This document shows, one piece after another, positions 3,236-62,962 of a stretch of 64,000 nucleotides of DNA. The stretch is taken from positions 6,094 through 70,093 of the forward strand of contig JAOUFM010000006.1 of NCBI GenBank assembly GCA_029858205.1. The letters run 5' to 3'. The DNA comes from Deltaproteobacteria bacterium. GTDB taxonomy: Bacteria; Desulfobacterota; GWC2-55-46; DRQE01. The notes below the pieces were generated by a model that was not told the origin of the DNA, did not search any database, and saw nothing but the letters and a program-made list of their open reading frames with translations. Made by a program: the position numbers and the translations under genes. Within the stretch, counting starts at the first letter, position 1, and each line of letters begins with the position of its first letter.

Positions 3236-5463
3236 CACACTATCCAGTGCGTCTGTTCGTAGTCGGTATCAGGAGCCTCTATCGAGAGATACCCTCTTGC
3301 CGGCCAGCGCTCGCTTTTTTTGCCGCTCTCGTAAGAGACCTCTATAAAGAGCCTCAGCTCGTCCCTTGCCTTTGCGCCGAATACGGAAAACGGCACTGCC
3401 ATCTCGACAACGCTTTGCGACTTGATTGTCTCTAACTGCACGGCATCTCCCCATGTATTGGAGCCGACGTCTTTTTGATATATGTTCGCCGAAGAGCTTG
3501 CTCCCTCGACATTCACCTCAATTTTAACCTCGCGCGGGCTAAGCGCCGTTATCTCAAAGCTCCAGGGCTTCTCGTACACGCCGTCGCTGTCAGTGAGTTC
3601 TTTTTTGTAATCGAACCTGAGAAACAATCTATCGATGCTAAAGCCGTAGAGTATTTTACCCAGCAGCCCGCCCTTTAGTTCCGAGACCTGGTGCATTGCG
3701 CCGCCTGTCTTTTGCGCCTCTATAGCTGCGGCAGAGAGCCATTCGAAATAATTTGTGACCTTGCCGTCTATCACAGGTTCCATAAAGGCGTGCGGCAATG
3801 CAGAGGGCACGAACCCGCGTTCTTCGGAGATGATGGGTATGTCGAGTGATGAAGGAGGCTCTTCGCCAAGGAGCGCGTAGACCTTTTTAAGATAAGACCG
3901 GAAAAGAAGGTCGAACTGTTTGTCGTTCATGGATGCGTGCTCGTCGCCGTACCACCAGAACCAGTCGCTGCCTTCCGCCGCGTAGAGCGCGTTCCACGCG
4001 CCTTGGATGTCCTCGTTCTCAGAGCTCGACCGTAAGGCGTGTTTCTTTATCATGTCTCTTGCGCCGCTTATCGCGTCCCACGCCGAGTTATCCTCCTGAT
4101 GCCCTATCCAGATCTTGAAGTTCCCGTTTATCCACGACCCGCTCGCTATGCGCTCAAGGGGCTCAGCTGAGCCGTAAGAATTAAGGAACTCGGAAACAGT
4201 TACCGTGCGAGCGAAATCGGAGTCGGAAAGACGCGAGTAAAGTTCGCGGAAAAAATCGTTACCGTCGTTAGGATAGGACTCCCATGCGTTCTCGCCGTCG
4301 AGTATTACCGATACAAGAGAGCGTGCCGGGTCTTTTGTGACAGCGTGTATCTTTTTAATCCGCTCCATGAAATCAGCGGCAGCGTCCTTTGCCCCGAACT
4401 TCGAGTAATCGAAGCCGATTCTGTCGGAGATGACGCGGTCGCGAAATATCATGTTCATGCTGGAAGCGCCCTGCCCGACCCTGTAGGGCTTGTATATCAT
4501 GTCGGTTGTCGGATGTCCGTACTTATCTCTCTCGGCCCTCTGCCTAAGAGAGGCCTCGAGTATCGCCTCGTCGGTAGCTATCCAATTTATCCCTTCCTCT
4601 GCCATTATCTTGACGGCCTCCATACTGACCGAGCCTTCGCTTGGCCACATGCCTTTTGGAGCAAAGCCGAATGTGTCCTTGAAAGACTTGATTGCCCTTC
4701 TCACGTGCTCTCTTGCGTCCTCTGGCGTCAGCACGCGTGTTTTAGGGAGCGAAACTCCCGGCATTGCTTCCCTTGCGCTGTCGCTATCGCATAGAAGCGG
4801 CAGTATCGGATGAAAGTACGGCGAGACGGTAAGCTCGATTTGCCCCTTCTCGGCCATTTCCTTATACTTGGGGATGATGGCTCGCATGATAGCCGTCTGC
4901 TTTATAAGGAGCTTTGCCTTGTCGTCTTCGCTAAAGTTCCTGCCCTTTTCAGTCAGGGCTTTTAAGAATTCGTCCTTTTCGCGAAGCATTGGGTCTATCC
5001 ATGAGAGGAAAAATAGCACTTGCAGATCGCGGTACTCTTCAGTTGAGAAAAACCTTATTGCTGCCTCGGTATCTTCCCTTAGCCACGAGAACCCTCTCTT
5101 CACAAGAAGAGACCAGTACCGGCTAAACGGCCTTATGACAGTTTCCCAGTTGGCCTGGAAAAAACTTTCCAGTAAAAAGAACTTGTCGTCGGCGGTAAGC
5201 TCTTCCGAGCTCTTCGCAACGACTGCCCGGTATTTGTCGTTTACCGTATCGGACTCGTAATCCCTTATCTGTTCGATGAGAGACGGAACAAGGTTGAAGG
5301 TCTGCTTTATGCTTGGGAAGCCCTCGAGCATGGAGGGCATGTCGAGGTAGTCTTTGGTGCCGTGGAGAAGCACCCATGGAAGTATGTACTCGCCGCTAAA
5401 AGGGTCTTTGTATATCGGCTGGTGCATATGCCATACAAAGGCTATGTTGAGCCGTTTATCCAT
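3235..5463 (-). CDS. Glycoside hydrolase family 57 protein (alpha-amylase/alpha-glucanotransferase-like) with a C-terminal extension
   Basis: The NIAFVWHMHQPIYKDPF...ILPWVLLHGTKDY motifs are typical of GH57. The start is most likely the internal MDKRL, immediately after the upstream stop. Confidence 0.8.
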   Translation of the reverse strand: MDKRLNIAFVWHMHQPIYKDPFSGEYILPWVLLHGTKDYLDMPSMLEGFPSIKQTFNLVPSLIEQIRDYESDTVNDKYRAVVAKSSEELTADDKFFLLESFFQANWETVIRPFSRYWSLLVKRGFSWLREDTEAAIRFFSTEEYRDLQVLFFLSWIDPMLREKDEFLKALTEKGRNFSEDDKAKLLIKQTAIMRAIIPKYKEMAEKGQIELTVSPYFHPILPLLCDSDSAREAMPGVSLPKTRVLTPEDAREHVRRAIKSFKDTFGFAPKGMWPSEGSVSMEAVKIMAEEGINWIATDEAILEASLRQRAERDKYGHPTTDMIYKPYRVGQGASSMNMIFRDRVISDRIGFDYSKFGAKDAAADFMERIKKIHAVTKDPARSLVSVILDGENAWESYPNDGNDFFRELYSRLSDSDFARTVTVSEFLNSYGSAEPLERIASGSWINGNFKIWIGHQEDNSAWDAISGARDMIKKHALRSSSENEDIQGAWNALYAAEGSDWFWWYGDEHASMNDKQFDLLFRSYLKKVYALLGEEPPSSLDIPIISEERGFVPSALPHAFMEPVIDGKVTNYFEWLSAAAIEAQKTGGAMHQVSELKGGLLGKILYGFSIDRLFLRFDYKKELTDSDGVYEKPWSFEITALSPREVKIEVNVEGASSSANIYQKDVGSNTWGDAVQLETIKSQSVVEMAVPFSVFGAKARDELRLFIEVSYESGKKSERWPARGYLSIEAPDTDYEQTHWIV

Positions 5464-11931: not shown

Positions 11932-13347
11932 TCAGTACACACCCATGGCATGGTAAGCGCGTTCTATTTTCTCTATGGCAATGTAATACGCCGCGGTTCT
12001 GTAGTCGGTTATGGCAGGGTTTTGCGCCATGACTTCGCGAATTTCCTGCCATGCTGTACGCATCGTATCGTCAAGGCCAGAGTACACGAGGTCAAGCTCG
12101 TCAGCTCCGCGAAGCAGTTCCTTATACGCCCATTCAGGGAGCTTCTTACCGGTGATTTCCTCGATTGCCTTTGTGATGTGCTGGCCCCTTAGCTCGTCGA
12201 AGCGCCTGCCCATCCTGCCAAACCGTATGTGCCCGATGTTCCTTACCCATTCAAAGTAGCTGACTGTAACGCCGCCGGAGTTAAGGAACGCGTCCGGGAT
12301 GACTGTGATGCCGCGCTTTCTAAGTATCTCGTCTGCCTCGAATGTGGTCGGGCCGTTTGCAGCCTCGGCAACTATCTTAGCGTTTATCCTTCCCGCGTTC
12401 TCTTCGGTGATTACGCCTTCCATCGCAGCTGGCATGAGTATGTCGCATTCAATCGTCATGGCCCCGGCCCTGTCCTCGCCAAATGAGCCGCCTGAGAAGC
12501 CTTTTACTCCGCCTGCCTTGATTATGTGCGCCCTCAGGTCGTCTATGTTGATGCCCTTGGGGTTGGTTATAACGCCATCACGCTCGATTACTGCGATGAC
12601 CTTGACCCCATCTTCCTCTGAAAGGAACTTTGCCGCGTGGTAGCCGACGTTGCCGAGCCCTTGCACGACCATGCGCTTATTGGAAAGGTCTCCGGAGAGG
12701 CCGCATTTCTCGACATCATCGATAAACCTAAAGAGCTCGCGAAGCGCGTACTGTATGCCCTTTCCCGTTGCCTCTGTCCTGCCCCTTACACCTCCAAGGT
12801 GCACTGGCTTTCCGGTAACGCACGCGATGTAGTTTATGTCCTCTGGATATAAATTCTTATAGGTGTCCATTATCCAGGCCATTTCCCTCGGGCCTGTGCC
12901 CATGTCCGGGGCCGGGACGTTTGTTGCGGGGCTTAAAAAGCCGCGGATTGCGAGCTCTCTTGCGTACGCGCGCGTGATTCGCTGAAGCTCGTCGCGTTCG
13001 TATTTTAGCGGGTCTACACAGAGCCCGCCCTTTGCGCCGCCAAAGGGCACGTCAACGATTGCGCACTTGTATGTCATTAAGGAAGCAAGCGCCTCGACCT
13101 CGTCCTGATTAACGTCGGATGAGTACCTGATGCCGCCCTTTACAGGGAGCATGTGGGAGCTATGTGTTGCGCGATATCCGGTGAACATCTCGGTCTTGCC
13201 TTTGATTTCCACCGGGAACTGGACTTTGATAACAGCGTTACACTGCTTAATAGCTGCCGCAAGGCCGGGGCTTAATTTTTTTACAATCATCGCCCTGTCG
13301 ACCATCAGGTCTACGTTCTCGCGAAAGCTTTTCTTTTTATTTGGCAT
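11932..13347 (-). CDS. gdhA: NAD(P)-dependent glutamate dehydrogenase
   Basis: GGAKGGLCVDP, the Glu/Leu/Phe/Val dehydrogenase active-site motif; 471 aa. Confidence 0.9.
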   Translation of the reverse strand: MPNKKKSFRENVDLMVDRAMIVKKLSPGLAAAIKQCNAVIKVQFPVEIKGKTEMFTGYRATHSSHMLPVKGGIRYSSDVNQDEVEALASLMTYKCAIVDVPFGGAKGGLCVDPLKYERDELQRITRAYARELAIRGFLSPATNVPAPDMGTGPREMAWIMDTYKNLYPEDINYIACVTGKPVHLGGVRGRTEATGKGIQYALRELFRFIDDVEKCGLSGDLSNKRMVVQGLGNVGYHAAKFLSEEDGVKVIAVIERDGVITNPKGINIDDLRAHIIKAGGVKGFSGGSFGEDRAGAMTIECDILMPAAMEGVITEENAGRINAKIVAEAANGPTTFEADEILRKRGITVIPDAFLNSGGVTVSYFEWVRNIGHIRFGRMGRRFDELRGQHITKAIEEITGKKLPEWAYKELLRGADELDLVYSGLDDTMRTAWQEIREVMAQNPAITDYRTAAYYIAIEKIERAYHAMGVY

Positions 13348-13359
13348 ATGGAAGTGTCC

Positions 13360-14050
13360 TTTTTAGTTTGCCCCTGCGGGGCGGCTTTGAAGTATTAGAC
13401 CTGCGAGTCAAAATGACAACTTCTTCGTCATTCCCGGCAGGCCGAGGGCCTGCACCCAAATGTAAAAACAATTCCTCCCACCACGTCATTCCCGCGCTCA
13501 TTTGGGCGGGAATCCAGCGTCTTACCTTATTTCCTCCCCTTTACAAGGGGCTGGGCTCCCGTTGCGCGAAGCCATTGCAACGGGAAGCGGAGGGGTAAAA
13601 TCTGTCTGTCATCCTGAACTTGATTCAGGATCCATTTTTAAAAAATCGAGATGCTGAAATGAATTCAGCATGACAAAAAGTTTCGTCATTCCCGCAGAAG
13701 CAGAAATCCATTTTTCTAAAAAAACTTTGCGCTGGCCGCGCGGCTTTGGCCGTAAGGTCTGCAAGGCTGCGACCCCGCCGCATAACCACCTCACGTATTG
13801 CCCCGCTTAAATCGCTTCGCTCATGCAACCCCGGCAATACGTCCGCCCCTTATGCGGCCCGCTTAAGCCTTGCCTGGCCTCACGGCCGGGGTTTGAAAAG
13901 AATCAAGCGCCGTAACCCCTCACCTTTATCCTCTCCCCAATGCGATTGGGGAGAGGAAATTCTTCTGCTGGTTCGGGTTTATAACCCGAACCGAAAAGTT
14001 TTGGTTCAAGTTGCAAACTTGAACCAGCGAAATAAAAGATGGGCAATGCC
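13360..14050. repeat. Mosaic block of short palindromic repeat modules (W-Y-Z-X), first copy
   Basis: Many perfect hairpins, including GCCCCTGCGGGGC, attcccgcgctcatttgggcgggaat, cctctccccaatgcgattggggagagg (12-bp stem) and ggttcgggtttataacccgaacc. Modules Y (~13640-13700), Z (~13768-13925) and X (~13960-14035) recur downstream at 14535-14890. Confidence 0.7.
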
Positions 14051-14092: not shown

Positions 14093-14455
14093 CTACCCAT
14101 CTTTTACATTCTCAGCTTTCATTCTTTTAATTTTCTCGTCACGCCACGCCTCGTATTCTTCCCGTAATTTTGTCAAAACAACATAAGGGTCTTCGCTATA
14201 GTTTATACCTTTCACTATTGAACTTATACTAGCAGTAGTGCCAAAACCTTTTTCTGAAGCAATAAAGTAATTCCAGCCTAAATCAGTTCCAACCGATTCT
14301 ATATCATTTAAAACAAAAAAAATCAGGTCCAATGTTTGCCACATAGATTCAAGCACCTCAAGAGATCCGTACATTGATCCTCTTTTTTTAGATGCTTCCA
14401 TGATTCCATCTATAAGCCGTTTTATTTTAACTATTTTTTCTTCTGGCTCGCCCAC
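14093..14455 (-). CDS. Hypothetical protein, about 120 aa, in a low-GC island
   Basis: ORF with a GTG start 7 nt after AGAGGAG. GC is about 35% against about 60% flanking. It is bounded by the two repeat blocks. No recognisable motif. Confidence 0.4.
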   Translation of the reverse strand: MGEPEEKIVKIKRLIDGIMEASKKRGSMYGSLEVLESMWQTLDLIFFVLNDIESVGTDLGWNYFIASEKGFGTTASISSIVKGINYSEDPYVVLTKLREEYEAWRDEKIKRMKAENVKDG

Positions 14456-14529
14456 AAACAACTCCTCTAATAATTACCTTGTCCATTACAACACAGTCTT
14501 AACAACTGGGGTGGCACCACCTAAAACTT

Positions 14530-14900
14530 GGGTAGAAAACTTCTGCTGGTTCGGGTTTATAACCCGAACCGAAAAAGTTTTGGTTCAAGTTGCAAACTTG
14601 AACCAGCGAAAAATCGAGATGCTGAAATGAATTCAGCATGACAAAAAGTTTCGTCATTCCCGAGGTATTAATCGGGAATCCAGCGTCTTTGAAGCTTTAC
14701 CCCTGCGGGGCGGCTTTTGGGTATGAGGCCTGCAAGGCTGCGACCCCGCCGCACGGCCTCCTCGCATCAAACCCTGCCTTAAATCGCTGCGCTCATGCTC
14801 CCCCGGTTTGCCGCCCTCCTCCCGTGCGGCCCGCTTAAGCCTTGCATGGCCCCATACCCGGGGATTTGAAAAAATCAAGATGACATGCTTTATAAAACAC
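14530..14900. repeat. Mosaic block of short palindromic repeat modules (X-Y-W'-Z), second copy
   Basis: Modules X (14538-14608), Y (14609-14665) and Z (14728-14890) are 85-100% identical to the first copy but arranged in a different order. Confidence 0.7.
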
Positions 14901-14919
14901 TTTATGCGCCATGTCTTTT

Positions 14920-15567
14920 TTACCAAGCCTCGGCATCTTTCAGTCGCTCGACATCATAAGTTAATTGTTTAATCATTTGACGTACATACCAATAAAGACC
15001 TTCGACCTTTAGCAATATTGCATAGCCATGCGTTCTTCTGACTTTAATTATTGCGCCAGACATACCTTCAGGACGAATGTCAGTTTCCAATTGTTGGATA
15101 GCCAACTCGTCCATGCCTGGAGAGTCCCGATCAATTTTTAATGCAACAATTGCTCTATTACCAGGAAAAATTTCCTTTATTAAGTCAAAATCGAGCTTAG
15201 CCGCATTATGTATCAATGGATTCCTAAAAACGTGATAAATTATTCTTGCAGCATACTCTGGTGCTACTCCGCTTTCTTTGGGTCCCCCGTCCCAAGGAAA
15301 GTACTCTTTTACTACTTTTTTAAAGTTATCACTAGAATCCTGTTTTTGCTCTTGGTTATAAAAAACTACGGAACATCCTGCTATAACCGAAAAAAGAATT
15401 GTAGCAATTGAAAAATTTAATCCTGCTTTAATCCCATGCTCTGGCATTGGAAGTCGCAACATTGCATGTATATCTTTTAAAGAATTGTTCTCTATATTTC
15501 CCCTTATGAATTTTCTTAGTTTCTCTGAAATTTCAGGATTAATATTTAACTCCGAATAACTCACTTT
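14920..15567 (-). CDS. Hypothetical membrane-anchored protein, about 216 aa, in a low-GC island
   Basis: A GGAGG SD lies 3 nt before a GTG start (VSYSELNI...). There is one TM helix (LNFSIATILFSVIAGCSVVF). The sequence is AT-rich. No recognisable family. Confidence 0.4.
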   Translation of the reverse strand, partial: KVSYSELNINPEISEKLRKFIRGNIENNSLKDIHAMLRLPMPEHGIKAGLNFSIATILFSVIAGCSVVFYNQEQKQDSSDNFKKVVKEYFPWDGGPKESGVAPEYAARIIYHVFRNPLIHNAAKLDFDLIKEIFPGNRAIVALKIDRDSPGMDELAIQQLETDIRPEGMSGAIIKVRRTHGYAILLKVEGLYWYVRQMIKQLTYDVERLKDAEAW

Positions 15568-15728
15568 CCCTCCACCCCCAAAAACCGCCAAGTTTGCCGT
15601 CAGGCGAGGCAGCGGGCGGTTTTGCTCCGCAGGCGTATTCGACAATACGTCGAGGAAGTAAAAACGCCCGCTAACGACGCATCACGGCAAAATCGGCGGT
15701 TTCCTTTTGTCCAAAGGTTGCGCTTGCA

Positions 15729-16808
15729 TCAAACCGCCTTCGCCGCCTTCCTCTCCTCAACAAGCGATAAAACTTCTCTTACCATCCTCTCAACAATTTC
15801 GTCTTCCTTTATTTTCGCAACCACCTCGCCGCTGCGGTAGATGAGCGCAACACCGTCGCCCCCTGCCATTGCAACGTCGGCTTCTTTTGCCTCTCCGGGG
15901 CCGTTCACAACGCACCCCATTACTGCTACTGTGACGGGCTCTTCAACGTGCGAAAGGCGTTTTTCGATTTCAAGCGCGATTTTTTCAGAGTTAAGCCTTA
16001 TGCGGCCGCATGTGGGGCAGGAAATGATGTTTATGCCGCGCTTTCTGATTTCAAGGGCCTTTAGTATCTCCCACGCAACGCGCACCTCTTCGACCGGGTC
16101 TGCTGTAAGAGAGACCCGAAGTGTAGAGCCGATGCCCATATGTAAGAGCACTCCGATGCCGACCGAGGACTTGATTGTGCCGGAGAAAAGTGTTCCTGCC
16201 TCGGTGATGCCAAGGTGGAGAGGATAGTCCGATACCTTTGAGAACGCCTCGTACGCTGCTATTGTCGAGTTCACGTTTGAGGACTTAAGGGAGACTTTTA
16301 TATCGTGGAAGCCTTCATCTTCGAGAAGCTTTATATGGCGTAGCGCGCTCTCGACCATTGCCTCGGGTGTCGGGTGGCCGTACTTTTGGAGAATGTCCTT
16401 TTCTAAAGACCCTGAGTTAACGCCTATGCGTATGGGCGCTTTTCTGCTGTTTGCCGCGCGCGCGACCTCTCTAACCCTGTCCTTGCCGCCGATGTTACCG
16501 GGGTTAAGCCTTAGTCCGTCTGCGCCTGAATCTAGAGAAAGAAGCGCGAGTTTGTGGTCAAAATGAATGTCCGCGATGAGCGGTATGGAGATGTTCTTCT
16601 TTATTTCCTTTATCGCCTTTGCTGCTACCTCATCTGGCACTGCCACGCGCACTATTTCGCACCCTGCCTTTTCGAGCTTTAGGATTTGCTCGATAGTTGC
16701 GGCAGTGTTCGAGGTATCGGTGTTTGTCATGGACTGCACGCGCACGGGAGCGCCTCCGCCAACAGTAACCCCGCCTATGGAAATTTGTCTTGTTTTCCTC
16801 TTTGCCAT
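15729..16808 (-). CDS. ispG: 4-hydroxy-3-methylbut-2-en-1-yl diphosphate synthase (IspG/GcpE)
   Basis: Full-length GcpE: RQISIGGVTVGG...RVQSMTNT...IADIHFD, and a C-terminal CxxC...C cluster (ISCPTCGR). Confidence 0.95.
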   Translation of the reverse strand: MAKRKTRQISIGGVTVGGGAPVRVQSMTNTDTSNTAATIEQILKLEKAGCEIVRVAVPDEVAAKAIKEIKKNISIPLIADIHFDHKLALLSLDSGADGLRLNPGNIGGKDRVREVARAANSRKAPIRIGVNSGSLEKDILQKYGHPTPEAMVESALRHIKLLEDEGFHDIKVSLKSSNVNSTIAAYEAFSKVSDYPLHLGITEAGTLFSGTIKSSVGIGVLLHMGIGSTLRVSLTADPVEEVRVAWEILKALEIRKRGINIISCPTCGRIRLNSEKIALEIEKRLSHVEEPVTVAVMGCVVNGPGEAKEADVAMAGGDGVALIYRSGEVVAKIKEDEIVERMVREVLSLVEERKAAKAV

Positions 16809-59442: not shown

Positions 59443-60167
59443 TTTTTCTTCTCTACCACTTCGATTATCCTTGCAACAACATCATCGAATCCCATGCCGC
59501 TTGTGTCTATATTCACGGCGTCATCCGCCTTTTGAAGCGGCGAGTTCTTTCTCGATGAATCCCTCTCGTCACGCTTTGAGATATCGCATGCCACCTTGCC
59601 GATATCCTGCCCCTTCGAGAGCCCGAGCTCGTCAAGCTGGCCAAGCCGCCTCTTTGCCCTGACATCGCCCGAGGCGTCGATAAAGAACTTGAAATCCGCC
59701 GAGTCCTTCAATACGACCGTTCCGATGTCTCTACCTTCCATCACAACGCCATGCTTCGCGGCAATGGATTTCTGAAGCCCAACAAGACGCTCTCTTACCG
59801 CCTTCTTCGATGAATAGCGCGAGGCAAGCTCCCCTGCCTTCTCCGTTCGTATGACGCCGGTATAGTCCTTGCCGTTTACAGATACTTTGAGGCCGTCCTC
59901 GGACAAAACAACATCGGCCTGTCCTGCGTATTCAGAAAGCGCCGCTTCATTATCCGCAGCCACCCCGTTTTCATCTGCTGACACGGCAAAGGCCCTGTAC
60001 ATCGCCCCTGTGTCCACGTACCTTAAGCCGAGCTTCTTTGCAACCGCCTTACTTACACTGGACTTACCTGAACCGGACGGGCCGTCAATTGCTATACGCA
60101 GTTCTTTTTTCAGGCCGAGGCCTCCTTTAGTATTTCGAAAAACGACGGGAACGATACGTCCACGCAC
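59439..60167 (-). CDS. cmk: Cytidylate kinase
   Basis: IAIDGPSGSGKSS P-loop and a Cmk fold. The first ATG overlaps aroA by about 57 nt, so the true start may be a downstream non-ATG codon. Confidence 0.85.
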   Translation of the reverse strand: MRGRIVPVVFRNTKGGLGLKKELRIAIDGPSGSGKSSVSKAVAKKLGLRYVDTGAMYRAFAVSADENGVAADNEAALSEYAGQADVVLSEDGLKVSVNGKDYTGVIRTEKAGELASRYSSKKAVRERLVGLQKSIAAKHGVVMEGRDIGTVVLKDSADFKFFIDASGDVRAKRRLGQLDELGLSKGQDIGKVACDISKRDERDSSRKNSPLQKADDAVNIDTSGMGFDDVVARIIEVVEKKK

Positions 60168-61402
60168 GCAGGGTCTTCTATGTCTATGCCGTCCTTCGAA
60201 TTAAGCGCGGCTATGGCAAAGGCCATTGCTATCCTGTGATCACCACGGCTATGAATTTTACCGCCTCTCACTGTAGCGCCACCACTACCCTTTATGACTA
60301 TGCCGTCCTTTAGCTCCTCTGCATCTACGCCTATTGCAGTAAGAGATTCCTTCATGACCGTAATCCTGTCGCTCTCCTTTACCCTTAGCTCTTCAGCGCC
60401 GGTTATCTTAGTAGAACCTTCTGCAAAAGCAGCCGCTATGTTTATAATCGGGAACTCGTCTATTGCAGGCAAAAGCTCATCCCCGTTTATGTCGACACCA
60501 TTTAGCTTCGACGTTCTTACAAGAAGATCCCCTGTGGGCTCGTCGTCGTCGTTCATGTTAACCACTTCGATAGCCCCGTTCATTTTTAAAAGGATGTCTA
60601 TAATGCCGCGCCTGGTGGGGTTTAAGCCGACATTTTTAATCAGCAGCTCGGAGCCGGGCGTAATCATGGCTCCTACGATAAAGAACGCGGCAGAGGAAAT
60701 ATCTCCTGGCACTTTTATGTCAGCGGCCTTTAGCGAAGCCGCTCTCTTAACCGTTGCCTTGTTGCCGTCTACCCTTATATCAACGCCAAACTTCTTGAAC
60801 ATGCGCTCGGTATGGTCTCTGCTCTTTGCAGGTTCTTCTACCGAGGTCTCGCCCTCTGCAAAAAGCCCGGCAAGGAGTATAGAGGACTTTACCTGCGCGC
60901 TAGCGATTTTACTTTTATACGCAATGCCTTTTAAGGCCTTGCCCTTCACTGTCATGGGCAAAAGCTTATCGTCAAGCGCGCTTATATCAGCGCCCATCAT
61001 TCTTAGCGGCTCTATTACGCGCTTCATAGGGCGCTTTCTTAGAGAATCATCTCCGTCTATTACCGACGTAAACGATTGTGCCGCAAGTATGCCTGTTAAG
61101 AGCCTTGCCGTGGTGCCGGAATTGCCCGCATCTATTACGCCAGATGGGGCCTTTAAGCCGTTTAACCCAACGCCGTGCACGATGAGGCGCGACTTTGACG
61201 GGCTCTCTATCTTGACGCCCATTGCCCTGAAAGCGCCGGCTGTGTGCAGGTTATCGTCGCCTTCGAGAAAGTTCGTTACCTCGGTAGTGCCGTCCGCAAT
61301 GGAACCCAGCATAACGGCCCTGTGCGAGATGGACTTATCGCCGGGAACCTCGATAGAGCCGGAAAGAGATTTTATTGGATTTATTTTTCTTATCTTCAAC
61401 AA
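60110..61402 (-). CDS. aroA: 3-phosphoshikimate 1-carboxyvinyltransferase (EPSP synthase)
   Basis: ...LSGSIEVPGDKSISHRA...; 430 aa and full-length. Confidence 0.95.
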   Translation of the reverse strand: MLKIRKINPIKSLSGSIEVPGDKSISHRAVMLGSIADGTTEVTNFLEGDDNLHTAGAFRAMGVKIESPSKSRLIVHGVGLNGLKAPSGVIDAGNSGTTARLLTGILAAQSFTSVIDGDDSLRKRPMKRVIEPLRMMGADISALDDKLLPMTVKGKALKGIAYKSKIASAQVKSSILLAGLFAEGETSVEEPAKSRDHTERMFKKFGVDIRVDGNKATVKRAASLKAADIKVPGDISSAAFFIVGAMITPGSELLIKNVGLNPTRRGIIDILLKMNGAIEVVNMNDDDEPTGDLLVRTSKLNGVDINGDELLPAIDEFPIINIAAAFAEGSTKITGAEELRVKESDRITVMKESLTAIGVDAEELKDGIVIKGSGGATVRGGKIHSRGDHRIAMAFAIAALNSKDGIDIEDPACVDVSFPSFFEILKEASA

Positions 61403-61422
61403 TACACCAACCGATATATTAA

Positions 61423-61881
61423 TTATGACCCCTGAATTCTTTCGGCAGACGCGGCCTGTTCCTTACCTTTATTGGCATAAACCAGGTTAATAACGACCAA
61501 GGCCAGCACCAACACTGCGTTCAAAACAAGGAAAAAATCTAACGCGCCGCCGTATATCTTTCCCCCGCTTCGCGCTCCGGTAAACTTCATAAGCGCAAGC
61601 ATCGAATATGGAAATAGGAATATGATAACAACTTGGCAAAAAAGCCACGGCGAAAATCTTTTACGCCACTGCCTGATTATAACCGTAATAAAAAAAACGA
61701 AATATAACAGATAAAAACAGACTTCCCACCAGGCAGGGTTGCCACGGCCCGAAAACACAAAATATACCACTAAAGCAAACAACCCCAACGCAATAAAACC
61801 AAAAACGCCGTACATGAATACGGCAATGCCGCTTAATATCCTATCGGGTTTGGTTAATGCCGCGTCCTCGTTCATCTTCAC
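61423..61881 (-). CDS. Hypothetical membrane protein (4 TM)
   Basis: Hydrophobic helices and no known motif. It sits between tyrA and aroA. Confidence 0.4.
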   Translation of the reverse strand: MKMNEDAALTKPDRILSGIAVFMYGVFGFIALGLFALVVYFVFSGRGNPAWWEVCFYLLYFVFFITVIIRQWRKRFSPWLFCQVVIIFLFPYSMLALMKFTGARSGGKIYGGALDFFLVLNAVLVLALVVINLVYANKGKEQAASAERIQGS

Positions 61882-62089: not shown

Positions 62090-62962
62090 CTATTTTTTAA
62101 GCGCGTCGCGTATGTCCTTGGCCCTCTGAAAGTCTGCCTTTATGGCATCGTACTCCCCTTTGGAGATATGACCCTTTATATTTGTAAGCACGCGCTCGAA
62201 CTTTTCTATGGTCGAGAGAATGGCTGCTTTATTCATGTCGCAGATATCGGCCCACATCTCGGGCGAGCTTGACGCGATACGCGTAAAGTCCTTAAAGCCT
62301 CCGGCAGTGTATTTTAGAATGTCGTGGTCCTTGATTTCCTCGTCAATGTCCTCTATAGCATTGACAAGCGAATAGGCTATTACGTGCGGAAGATGGCTTA
62401 TGGCAGCAAGCGCGATGTCGTGTGTTTTCGCATCCATTATAACGACCTCCGAGCCCGCAGCCTCCCAGAGCGCCCTTACCTTCTGAAGCGCTTCTTTGTC
62501 GGTCTTGTCCGTGGGGGTCAGGATGCATTTACGCTTTACGTAAAGGTCTCGCACCGCAAACTCTGCTCCCGAGTTCTCGGTGCCCGCAATCGGGTGCGCT
62601 GCGACAAAATGCGCGCCCTTCGGCATCAAAGGCTCGACCGCCTTCACAACCTCTTCCTTGACGCTTCCAACGTCCGTGACGATAGCGCCTGGCTTCAAAT
62701 TTCTGGCAAATGAAGAAACAATCGAGGCAATGCTTTTGACAGGAACGCAGACAACTACAAGGTCTGCGTCTTTTACGCCCTCGTTTACGTCATGGGTATA
62801 GGAATCGATAAGCCCCATGGACACGGCGGTCTTTAGGTTCTTCTCACCCCTGCCCACGCCGACTATGGTGCCGGCAAGCTTCTTATCCTTTAGCGTATAG
62901 CAGAGCGAGCCGCCGATCAGCCCTACCCCTATTATGGCAACCTTTTTAAAAAAGGGTTCCAT
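62090..62962 (-). CDS. tyrA: Prephenate dehydrogenase
   Basis: NAD-binding VAIIGVGLIGGS and the TyrA catalytic-domain pattern. Confidence 0.85.
   Translation of the reverse strand: MEPFFKKVAIIGVGLIGGSLCYTLKDKKLAGTIVGVGRGEKNLKTAVSMGLIDSYTHDVNEGVKDADLVVVCVPVKSIASIVSSFARNLKPGAIVTDVGSVKEEVVKAVEPLMPKGAHFVAAHPIAGTENSGAEFAVRDLYVKRKCILTPTDKTDKEALQKVRALWEAAGSEVVIMDAKTHDIALAAISHLPHVIAYSLVNAIEDIDEEIKDHDILKYTAGGFKDFTRIASSSPEMWADICDMNKAAILSTIEKFERVLTNIKGHISKGEYDAIKADFQRAKDIRDALKK

What the first reader, a model, noticed from the sequence alone, without database searches (positions are those of the whole stretch)
14093..15567. Low-GC two-gene island of orphan ORFs embedded in the repeat mosaic between gdhA and ispG
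Both ORFs (about 120 aa and about 216 aa; the larger has one TM helix) are about 35-40% GC against about 60% for the surrounding genes. Both start with GTG a few nt after a strong SD (AGAGGAG, GGAGG). Neither has a recognisable motif. Each is flanked by the structured repeat blocks. This looks like a horizontally acquired cassette at a repeat-rich hotspot. A two-gene toxin/immunity or anti-phage module is possible, but I cannot assign a function from sequence alone.
Basis: partly seen in the sequence, partly recalled or inferred. Interest (0 to 1): 0.6.

Follow-up and report, generated by a model that had tools for sequence, protein, structure and literature searches.

The report
Orphan Rhs immunity gene plus HEPN-like gene
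The low-GC patch between ispG and gdh holds two unrelated accessory genes, not a toxin/immunity pair: a stranded immunity gene from the genome's own Rhs toxin array, and a member of a widespread unnamed family that looks like a HEPN-type RNase.

Summary
Two intact minus-strand ORFs of 36% GC (GC3 29%) lie in a 52% GC window, not 60%. Both have an SD plus GTG start, and both adjoin modular hairpin repeats.

The two-gene cassette interpretation is not supported.

ORF1 (14093-14455, 120 aa):
- It has two paralogues (64-67% aa) on another contig of the same MAG.
- Each paralogue sits 12-22 nt after a homologous Rhs C-terminal toxin domain that follows PxxxxDPxGL.
- The window keeps about 19 decayed codons of that toxin's 3' end upstream of ORF1.
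- The downstream repeat block is collinear with the Rhs array.
- ORF1 is therefore best read as an orphan Rhs immunity gene.

ORF2 (14920-15564, 214 aa):
- It is not an orphan. A full HMMER scan finds 425 family clusters, none named in Pfam, NCBIfam, PADLOC or PHROGs.
- The family has an invariant R-N-P-x-x-H motif.
- In a confident AlphaFold model (pLDDT 91) the motif sits at the end of helix 3 of a helical bundle.
- Homologues are solitary genes in variable regions; one lies inside a defence island.
- I read it as a stand-alone HEPN-like RNase and a candidate abortive-infection toxin. This is moderately supported and untested.

The parts
14093..14455 (-). ORF1, 120 aa, GTG start. Orphan immunity gene of an Rhs polymorphic-toxin module.
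   Evidence: 64% and 67% aa identity to L001:743-1099 and L001:4370-4723. Both lie directly after homologous Rhs-CT toxin domains in the same MAG. dN/dS against the paralogues is 0.16-0.26. No Pfam, NCBIfam, PADLOC or PHROG hit.
14462..14468 (-). Shine-Dalgarno AGAGGAG of ORF1
   Evidence: Read directly from the sequence. It lies 6 nt before the GTG at 14455. The paralogue alignment supports this start over the automated 83-aa call.
14475..14540 (-). Vestige of the 3' end of the Rhs-CT toxin gene (KFSTQVLGGATPVVKTVL*), cut off at the edge of the repeat block
   Evidence: It aligns in frame and collinearly with the last ~20 residues of both L001 toxins. BLOSUM62 local score is 44, against 23.5 +/- 3.4 for shuffles; 1 of 3000 shuffles and 1 of 2842 real window 90-mers reach it.
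14920..15564 (-). ORF2, 214 aa, GTG start. Member of an unnamed ~210-aa family with an invariant RNPxxH motif; predicted HEPN-like RNase.
15569..15573 (-). Shine-Dalgarno GGAGG of ORF2
   Evidence: Read directly from the sequence.
15582..15702 (-). Imperfect ~120-nt palindrome with a U-run after ispG: a terminator-like structure abutting the ORF2 ribosome-binding site
   Evidence: RNA fold of -75.6 kcal/mol, z -4.6, with 0 of 200 shuffles as stable. Arms listed. Unique in the window.
14528..14879 (.). Repeat block 2 between ORF2 and ORF1. Units in order: h1-h2-h3-h4-u6-u7-u8-u9.
   Evidence: 93% identical (88 nt) and 77% identical (277 nt) to parts of block 1. h2 and h3 score as terminator-like on the minus strand.
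13348..14032 (.). Repeat block 1 between ORF1 and gdh. Units in order: u7-u6-h3-h4-u8-u9-h5-h1-h2.
   Evidence: Window 13485-13964 is 74% identical over 481 nt to L001:4943-5341, the block that follows the paralogous immunity gene in the Rhs array. It is collinear with ORF1.

Best explanation
The ispG-gdh spacer is a small dumping ground for foreign DNA. It holds two independent accessory genes, not an operon.

(1) ORF1 is an orphan immunity gene.
- It descends from a 'Rhs-CT toxin + immunity' module like those stacked in the same genome's Rhs array.
- The toxin gene was lost up to its last ~19 codons, at the point where a hairpin-repeat unit now abuts it. The immunity gene stayed intact.
- Inferred mechanism: the 120-aa protein binds and neutralises the cognate Rhs C-terminal toxin when a neighbouring cell, or the cell's own paralogous modules, delivers it. 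This gives protection without the cost of the weapon.

(2) ORF2 is a stand-alone member of a widespread, unnamed family that I assign to the HEPN superfamily.
- The model is a four-helix bundle with an extra helix between H2 and H3.
- The invariant R114-N-P-x-x-H119 motif lies at the end of H3.
- A ~65-residue alpha/beta insert sits before the last helices.
- Inferred mechanism: a metal-independent RNase that uses the R/H pair, kept inactive or at very low level. Its start codon lies just after a strong terminator hairpin. It would be activated under infection or stress, as in single-gene abortive-infection HEPN proteins.

Shown: the homologies, contexts, vestige, motif conservation, fold model and composition.
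Inferred: immunity activity, RNase activity, a defence role, and how the segment arrived (recombination between repeat units).
For: ORF1:
- A paralogue sits 12 nt after an Rhs fragment ending '...NPVNYTDPWGL' plus a 150-aa CT. A second paralogue sits 22 nt after a homologous CT.
- Both are in the same MAG as the window (locus tags OEV59_05270 and OEV59_06260).
- PxxxxDPxGL as the Rhs-CT boundary, and orphan toxin/immunity modules, are described in PMC3150448.
- A toxin-tail vestige lies upstream of ORF1.
- The downstream repeat block is collinear with L001.
- These repeat units are absent from the rest of the 64-kb window but present between Rhs modules.
- dN/dS is 0.16-0.26.
- CT/immunity modules in L001 are also low-GC at 30-45%, against 54% for the Rhs core.

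ORF2:
- 425 family clusters.
- R is 149/149, H 146/148 and N 128/149.
- AF2 pLDDT is 90.7, with the motif at the end of helix 103-121 and an extra helix at 78-89.
- This matches the published HEPN description: motif at the end of helix 3, N/D/H after the R, inserts between H2 and H3 (PMC3710099).
- There is no conserved neighbour in six contexts.
- Contexts seen are: next to HicAB, next to an IS256-type transposase, at the edge of an integrative-element-like region, and between an Hma system and PDC-S54 in a defence island.

Not a pair:
- The gap is 465 nt and contains terminator-like hairpins.
Against: ORF1:
- The immunity role rests on gene order only.
- The family is known from three copies in one MAG.
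- The toxin domain has no Pfam or PDB match, so its activity is unknown.
- The vestige is short, and DNA-level alignment alone is not significant.
- dN/dS mostly reflects history before the copy was stranded.

ORF2:
- No HMM match to any Pfam HEPN family for any of 50 members.
- No PDB sequence-profile hit.
- Foldseek against PDB finds nothing.
- The HEPN Ex3[KR] acidic motif was not seen.
- Helix 2 is hydrophobic enough to be read as a TM segment.
- No homologue was found on known plasmids or phages.
- Only one of six contexts is a clear defence island.
- No promoter was detected for either gene.
Confidence: 0.6

Rival explanations
1. ORF2 (toxin or effector) and ORF1 (immunity or antitoxin) form one horizontally acquired two-gene toxin/immunity or anti-phage cassette.
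For: The two genes share a strand, a similar 36% GC and GC3, and adjacency in one spacer. ORF2 may be a toxin-type RNase and ORF1 is an immunity-type protein.
Against: ORF1's paralogues pair with Rhs-CT toxins unrelated to ORF2 (tblastn of ORF2 on L001 gives only E>=3). ORF2 homologues have no ORF1-like or any other conserved neighbour. A 465-nt repeat block with terminator-like hairpins separates the genes. A toxin-gene vestige sits between them.
Confidence: 0.07
2. ORF2 is not an enzyme. It is an orphan immunity, adaptor or membrane-associated protein whose helical bundle only superficially resembles HEPN. The interval is then a small 'immunity island' of two orphan immunity genes.
Against: Strictly invariant R and H in an RNxxxH motif across 150 diverged sequences (30-40% identity) point to catalysis. 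The motif's position matches the HEPN rule. No toxin gene lies next to any homologue.
Confidence: 0.2
3. Both ORFs are decaying, unexpressed relics of old insertions and have no present function.
For: No promoter-like site was found for either gene. ORF2 starts right after a strong terminator. The toxin partner of ORF1 is already destroyed. One ORF2 homologue elsewhere is a split pseudogene.
Against: Both reading frames are intact, with good SD sequences and starts matching their homologues. All family-invariant residues of ORF2 are kept. ORF1 is under purifying selection relative to its paralogues.
Confidence: 0.13

Closest known systems
Orphan Rhs / CdiA-CT toxin-immunity modules and orphan immunity genes (Poole et al. 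2011, PMC3150448)
   Same: A small low-GC gene homologous to genes that immediately follow Rhs-CT domains after PxxxxDPxGL. A remnant of the toxin's 3' end is retained, as in displaced or silent cassettes.
   Different: It lies outside any rhs locus, between housekeeping genes, and has lost essentially the whole toxin. It is bracketed by hairpin repeat units. The immunity and toxin families have no Pfam or PDB match and are so far seen in one MAG only.
HEPN superfamily RNases, especially stand-alone abortive-infection members (AbiV, ApeA, Abi2/AbiD/AbiF types; Anantharaman et al. 2013, PMC3710099)
   Same: Helical bundle; invariant Rx4H with N after the R, at the end of helix 3; an extra element between H2 and H3; solitary gene in variable or defence regions.
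   Different: No sequence-profile match to any described HEPN family. A ~65-residue alpha/beta insert between the motif and the last helices. No Ex3[KR] motif seen. An unusually hydrophobic helix 2. No experimental data for any member.
HepT/MntA (HEPN/MNT) type II/VII toxin-antitoxin pairs
   Same: Among the best structural matches (7ae2, 5yep, 8xdj), and they carry the Rx4H motif.
   Different: No MNT nucleotidyltransferase or any other conserved partner gene lies next to ORF2 or its homologues. ORF2 is about 80 residues longer.

Membership tests
Rhs polymorphic-toxin immunity protein (orphan) | Homologues are encoded immediately downstream of an Rhs C-terminal toxin domain | tested here: met
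   L001:743-1099 lies 12 nt after Rhs-CT 3-731. L001:4370-4723 lies 22 nt after Rhs-CT 3466-4347. RHS_repeat/YD-shell Pfam hits are found on the array.
Rhs polymorphic-toxin immunity protein (orphan) | The partner toxin is demarcated from the Rhs core by PxxxxDPxGL | tested here: met
   'PVNYTDPWGL' and 'PVNYTDPWGE' precede the variable CT in L001. The motif definition is from PMC3150448.
Rhs polymorphic-toxin immunity protein (orphan) | The window copy derives from such a module (a trace of the toxin gene upstream) | tested here: met
   A 19-codon in-frame vestige, score 44 against 23.5 +/- 3.4 for shuffles, reached by 1 of 3000. It is short, so support is moderate.
Rhs polymorphic-toxin immunity protein (orphan) | The protein neutralises the cognate toxin | not testable with these tools
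   Needs co-expression or binding experiments.
HEPN superfamily | Conserved Rx4-6H motif with a polar N/D/H after the R | tested here: met
   R114-N-P-L-I-H119. In 150 family sequences R is 149/149, H 146/148 and N 128/149. The criterion is from PMC3710099.
HEPN superfamily | The motif lies at the end of helix 3 or the start of the H3-H4 loop of a four-helix up-down bundle, often with an insert between H2 and H3 | tested here: met
   The AF2 model (pLDDT 90.7) has helices 15-36, 51-70, [78-89 insert] and 103-121, with the motif at 114-119, then later helices 188-214. This is based on a predicted structure, and the coordinates were not inspected.
HEPN superfamily | Structural similarity to solved HEPN domains | tested here: inconclusive
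HEPN superfamily | Sequence-profile match to a described HEPN family | tested here: not met
   No Pfam hit at E<=10 for 50 members. No PADLOC, NCBIfam or PHROG hit. No PDB profile hit. HHpred-type profile-profile search against HEPN families could not be run.
HEPN superfamily | Second conserved acidic residue (Ex3[KR]) in helix 2 | tested here: not met
   Helix 2 is 'aGCNFAxAxxLLxxISGxS', with no conserved acidic residue. D31 (83%) in helix 1 and E160 (89%) in the insert are the only conserved acidic residues. This feature is present in many HEPN families but not all.
Type II toxin-antitoxin / two-gene defence cassette (ORF2 + ORF1) | The two genes co-occur and are adjacent across genomes | tested here: not met
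   There is no shared neighbour of ORF2 homologues within +/-2.5 kb in six contexts. ORF1 paralogues sit next to Rhs-CTs, not ORF2-like genes.
Known anti-phage defence systems (PADLOC-DB v2) | HMM match to a catalogued defence protein | tested here: not met
   No hit for ORF1, ORF2 or the L011 homologue.

The most novel reading that the evidence does not exclude
The ORF2 family (at least 425 clusters, unnamed in every library searched) is a new stand-alone HEPN-type abortive-infection RNase. Its alpha/beta insert would act as the phage sensor. Separately, the hairpin-repeat units are shared only by this spacer and the Rhs array. They may be the recombination substrate that moves toxin/immunity modules out of rhs loci and seeds orphan-immunity sites around the chromosome.
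Probability: 0.25. Interest if true: 0.6.

Novelty: new member of a known kind. Interest (0 to 1): 0.4.

Why it matters
Orphan immunity genes show which toxins a bacterium has had to survive. Here one is caught outside the rhs locus with a scar of its lost toxin. It shares repeat units with the Rhs array, which hints at how such modules move.

ORF2 gives a handle on a sizeable uncharacterised protein family that current defence-system and domain catalogues miss. If its RNase and defence role is confirmed, it adds a new single-gene HEPN system and a marker for variable or defence regions in poorly sampled anaerobes. Neither point changes a paradigm.

Tried and rejected
- Pfam, NCBIfam, PADLOC and PHROGs on both proteins gave nothing. 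Pfam on 50 ORF2-family members and on 10 longer members gave no domain or fusion clue.
- The word-indexed homologue search made ORF2 look like an ORFan. The exhaustive HMMER scan overturned that.
- Single-sequence AF2 of ORF2 was useless at pLDDT 37. The alignment-based model was good.
- Foldseek against PDB gave nothing. BFVD gave only two marginal uncharacterised phage proteins. afdb50 was not installed.
- tblastn of ORF2 against plasmid and phage collections found no match.
- The search for related loci with the family alignment failed because no stretch was conserved enough.
- Synteny test: an IspG scan of species genomes (best 65% identity) and a GAF-GGDEF scan of metagenomes (best 59%) gave no relative with the gdh-ispG arrangement. 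Presence or absence could not be judged.
- Rfam and tRNA scans of the interval gave nothing meaningful.
- DNA-level alignment of the toxin vestige was not significant under strict scoring. Only the protein-level, position-constrained test was.
- The Rhs-CT toxin domain has no PDB or Pfam match. My impression of a Cys/His papain-like toxin is unverified and is not claimed.
- I considered ORF2 as a paralogue of something in the Rhs array and rejected it.

Full report
**1. What is there**

Between ispG (15729-16808, minus) and a glutamate dehydrogenase gene (11932-13347, minus) lies a 2.4-kb spacer with two intact minus-strand ORFs.

- ORF1 runs 14455->14093. It starts at a GTG 6 nt after AGAGGAG and encodes 120 aa.
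- ORF2 runs 15564->14920. It starts at a GTG a few nt after GGAGG and encodes 214 aa.
Homologues start at the residue encoded at 15564.

Composition:

| Feature | GC | GC3 |
|---|---|---|
| ORF1 | 36.1% | 30% |
| ORF2 | 36.6% | 28% |
| Neighbouring genes | 52-54% | 58-67% |
| Whole window | 51.9% (400-nt sd 3.7%) | - |

The low-GC signal is real, about 4 sd below the mean, and only one other such spot exists in 64 kb. The contrast is with about 52% GC, not 60%.

**2. The repeats**

The rest of the spacer is built from at least nine short units. Several are perfect hairpins, for example GGTTCGGGTTTATAACCCGAACC and TGGTTCAAGTTGCAAACTTGAACCA. They are arranged in two blocks in different orders:

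- Block 1, 13348-14032: u7-u6-h3-h4-u8-u9-h5-h1-h2
- Block 2, 14528-14879: h1-h2-h3-h4-u6-u7-u8-u9

ORF1 is bracketed by both blocks. ORF2 has block 2 on its 3' side. On its 5' side is a separate ~120-nt imperfect palindrome plus U-run (15582-15702; RNA fold -75.6 kcal/mol, z -4.6). This structure looks like the ispG terminator and ends about 10 nt before the ORF2 SD.

None of the repeat units occurs elsewhere in the 64-kb window. Rfam and tRNA scans found nothing.

**3. ORF1 is a stranded Rhs immunity gene**

The only homologue from the large protein search was P0003 (64% identity; NCBI MDH4227147.1, OEV59_05270, 'Deltaproteobacteria bacterium' MAG).

Its contig, L001, is an array of Rhs/YD-repeat 3' fragments, each followed by a small ORF.

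- P0003 lies 12 nt after an Rhs fragment whose core ends in 'NPVNYTDPWGL', followed by a ~150-aa variable domain.
- A second paralogue (L001:4370-4723, 67% identical to ORF1) lies 22 nt after a homologous variable domain.
- PxxxxDPxGL is the published boundary of Rhs C-terminal toxin domains. Toxin-CT/immunity 'orphan modules' stacked after rhs genes are a described arrangement (PMC3150448).
- ORF2 of the window is MDH4227340.1, OEV59_06260, so it comes from the same MAG. ORF1 is therefore a third, dispersed paralogue within one genome.

Two further observations tie ORF1 to such a module.

- The ~60 nt upstream of ORF1 translate, in frame and collinearly, to KFSTQVLGGATPVVKTVL*. This matches the last residues of the L001 toxins (MFGQRVLGGYAPIVEEVI...). 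The BLOSUM62 score is 44, against 23.5 +/- 3.4 for shuffles, reached by 1 of 3000 shuffles and by 1 of 2842 real 90-mers of the window. DNA-level scoring alone was not significant. Homology stops where repeat unit h1 begins.
- The repeat block downstream of ORF1 (13485-13964) is 74% identical over 481 nt to the block downstream of the L001 paralogue, in the same order and orientation.

About 1 kb, comprising toxin tail, immunity gene and repeat block, is thus a diverged copy of the tail of an Rhs module.

- The ORF is intact over its full length relative to the paralogues.
- dN/dS is 0.16-0.26.
- CT/immunity modules in L001 are also low-GC at 30-45%, against 54% for the Rhs core. The low GC of ORF1 is therefore the normal signature of such modules.
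- The toxin domain itself has no Pfam or PDB match, so its activity is unknown.
- The immunity function is inferred from gene order, not shown.

**4. ORF2 belongs to a large unnamed family that looks like HEPN**

The word-indexed search found only the protein itself. The exhaustive HMMER scan of 1.84 billion representatives found 425 clusters at E<=1e-3 and 157 at E<=1e-10. Most are 200-230 aa, 30-40% identical and aligned end to end.

No member matches Pfam, and ORF2 matches nothing in NCBIfam, PADLOC or PHROGs. NCBI calls it hypothetical.

Conservation across 150 sequences:

| Residue | Conservation |
|---|---|
| R114 | 149/149 |
| H119 | 146/148 |
| N115 | 128/149 |
| P116 | 132/149 |

Together these give the motif F-R-N-P-L-x-H. 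Also conserved are MLRLP, G63/S65, F81, YPW (89-91), E160 and YWGxR (191-195).

An AlphaFold2 model built with 50 homologues is confident (pLDDT 90.7, pTM 0.90). Its elements are:

- helices 15-36, 51-70, 78-89 and 103-121;
- an alpha/beta segment with strands 140-146, 173-178 and 181-187;
- helices 188-214.

The R...H motif sits at the C-terminal end of helix 103-121.

This matches the published definition of the HEPN RNase domain (PMC3710099):

- a four-helix up-down bundle;
- frequent inserts between H2 and H3;
- a residue after the R that is usually N, D or H.

Evidence that does not support HEPN:

- Foldseek against PDB found nothing.
- BFVD gave two marginal uncharacterised phage proteins.
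- The PDB sequence-profile search found nothing.
- The AFDB libraries were unavailable.
- The Ex3[KR] element is absent.

I therefore call ORF2 'HEPN-like, probably a new family of the superfamily', not a proven member.

A membrane anchor is not excluded, but the model does not require one.

**5. Context of ORF2 homologues**

Six independent contexts were read.

- In two, the gene lies 500 nt before a HicB/HicA pair, and the upstream genes differ between two otherwise syntenic genomes.
- In another it lies among small hypothetical ORFs.
- In another it lies after serS and beside an IS256-type transposase.
- In another it is a split pseudogene at the edge of a region of small ORFs, an excisionase-like HTH and IS fragments.
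- In L011 it lies between an Hma system (HmaA/HmaB) and PDC-S54 (E 5e-127, 15 nt downstream). A Mokosh-like helicase, AbiEii and a Schlafen-like gene are nearby.

An all-against-all comparison of every ORF within +/-2.5 kb found no shared neighbour. There are no homologues on catalogued plasmids or phages.

The gene is thus a solitary, patchy accessory gene of variable regions. Its link to defence rests on one clear island plus the TA and mobile-element neighbourhoods.

**6. Are the two genes a unit?**

No evidence says so, and several points argue against it.

- Each gene has its own evolutionary connections (sections 3-5).
- ORF2 has no relative on the Rhs contig.
- The genes are 465 nt apart.
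- The gap contains the toxin vestige and hairpins that score as intrinsic terminators on the coding strand.

No sigma-70-like promoter was detected for either gene. How, or whether, they are transcribed is open.

**7. Mechanism proposed**

ORF1 would bind and block its cognate Rhs-CT toxin, protecting the cell against neighbours or against its own paralogous modules.

ORF2 would be a metal-independent RNase using R114/H119. It would be held inactive or scarce, since it has to be read through a strong terminator, and would be released on infection or stress, as in single-gene HEPN Abi proteins. The 65-residue insert is a candidate regulatory or sensor element.

How the DNA arrived is inferred. 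The likeliest route is recombination between the hairpin units shared with the Rhs array.

**8. What could not be tested**

Presence or absence of the island in relatives could not be judged. The closest IspG among 185,579 species genomes is 65% identical, and the closest GAF-GGDEF neighbour in metagenomes is 59% identical. None shows the gdh-ispG arrangement.

**9. Verdict**

The 'island at a repeat hotspot' idea is reasonable. The 'two-gene toxin/immunity cassette of orphans' idea is not supported.

One gene is an ordinary though nicely documented orphan Rhs immunity gene. The other is a member of an uncatalogued, probably HEPN-type family that would be worth an experiment. Interest is moderate.

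Noticed in passing
window 15582-15702: The ispG-ORF2 spacer is almost entirely one ~120-nt imperfect palindrome ending in a U-run (RNA fold -75.6 kcal/mol, z -4.6). It is unique in the window and ends about 10 nt before the ORF2 Shine-Dalgarno sequence. ORF2 therefore has no room for a promoter of its own after the terminator.
   Followed up: partly
window 61423-61881 (minus): This is the third low-GC spot of the window (~38%). It is a 152-aa ORF with several hydrophobic segments, wedged between an EPSP-synthase-like gene (60110-61402) and a prephenate-dehydrogenase-like gene (62090-62962).
   Followed up: no
window 13348-14032 and 14528-14879; L001 4943-5341, 7627-7718, 10311-10366: The hairpin and short repeat units of the spacer occur nowhere else in the 64-kb window. 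They do recur between orphan Rhs toxin/immunity modules on another contig of the same MAG. This suggests they travel with such modules or mediate their rearrangement.
   Followed up: partly
L001 1-11099: This contig carries an array of at least five Rhs 3' fragments. They have four or more different C-terminal toxin domains, each followed by a small low-GC ORF (30-41% GC). Two modules are paralogous to each other. None of the toxin or immunity domains has a Pfam match beyond RHS repeats.
   Followed up: partly
L011 8001-9946: An ORF2 homologue lies 15 nt upstream of a PADLOC candidate defence gene, PDC-S54 (E 5e-127). It sits next to an Hma helicase/methylase system, with AbiEii and Schlafen-like genes nearby.
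   Followed up: partly
L005 vs L006, 1-8000: Two otherwise syntenic genomes share the ORF2 homologue, HicAB and the downstream genes, but have entirely different genes upstream of it. A recombination breakpoint therefore lies right beside the gene.
   Followed up: no
window 14093-14455: Automated gene calls (P0002, 83 aa) start ORF1 at an internal ATG. Alignment with the paralogues shows conserved residues through the upstream 37 codons, which supports the 120-aa GTG start.
   Followed up: yes
window 13391-13419 (minus): This is the only sigma-70-like promoter match on the coding strand of the spacer (TTGTCA-17-AATACT). It sits about 45 nt upstream of the gdh start codon and probably serves gdh, not the island genes.
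   Followed up: no
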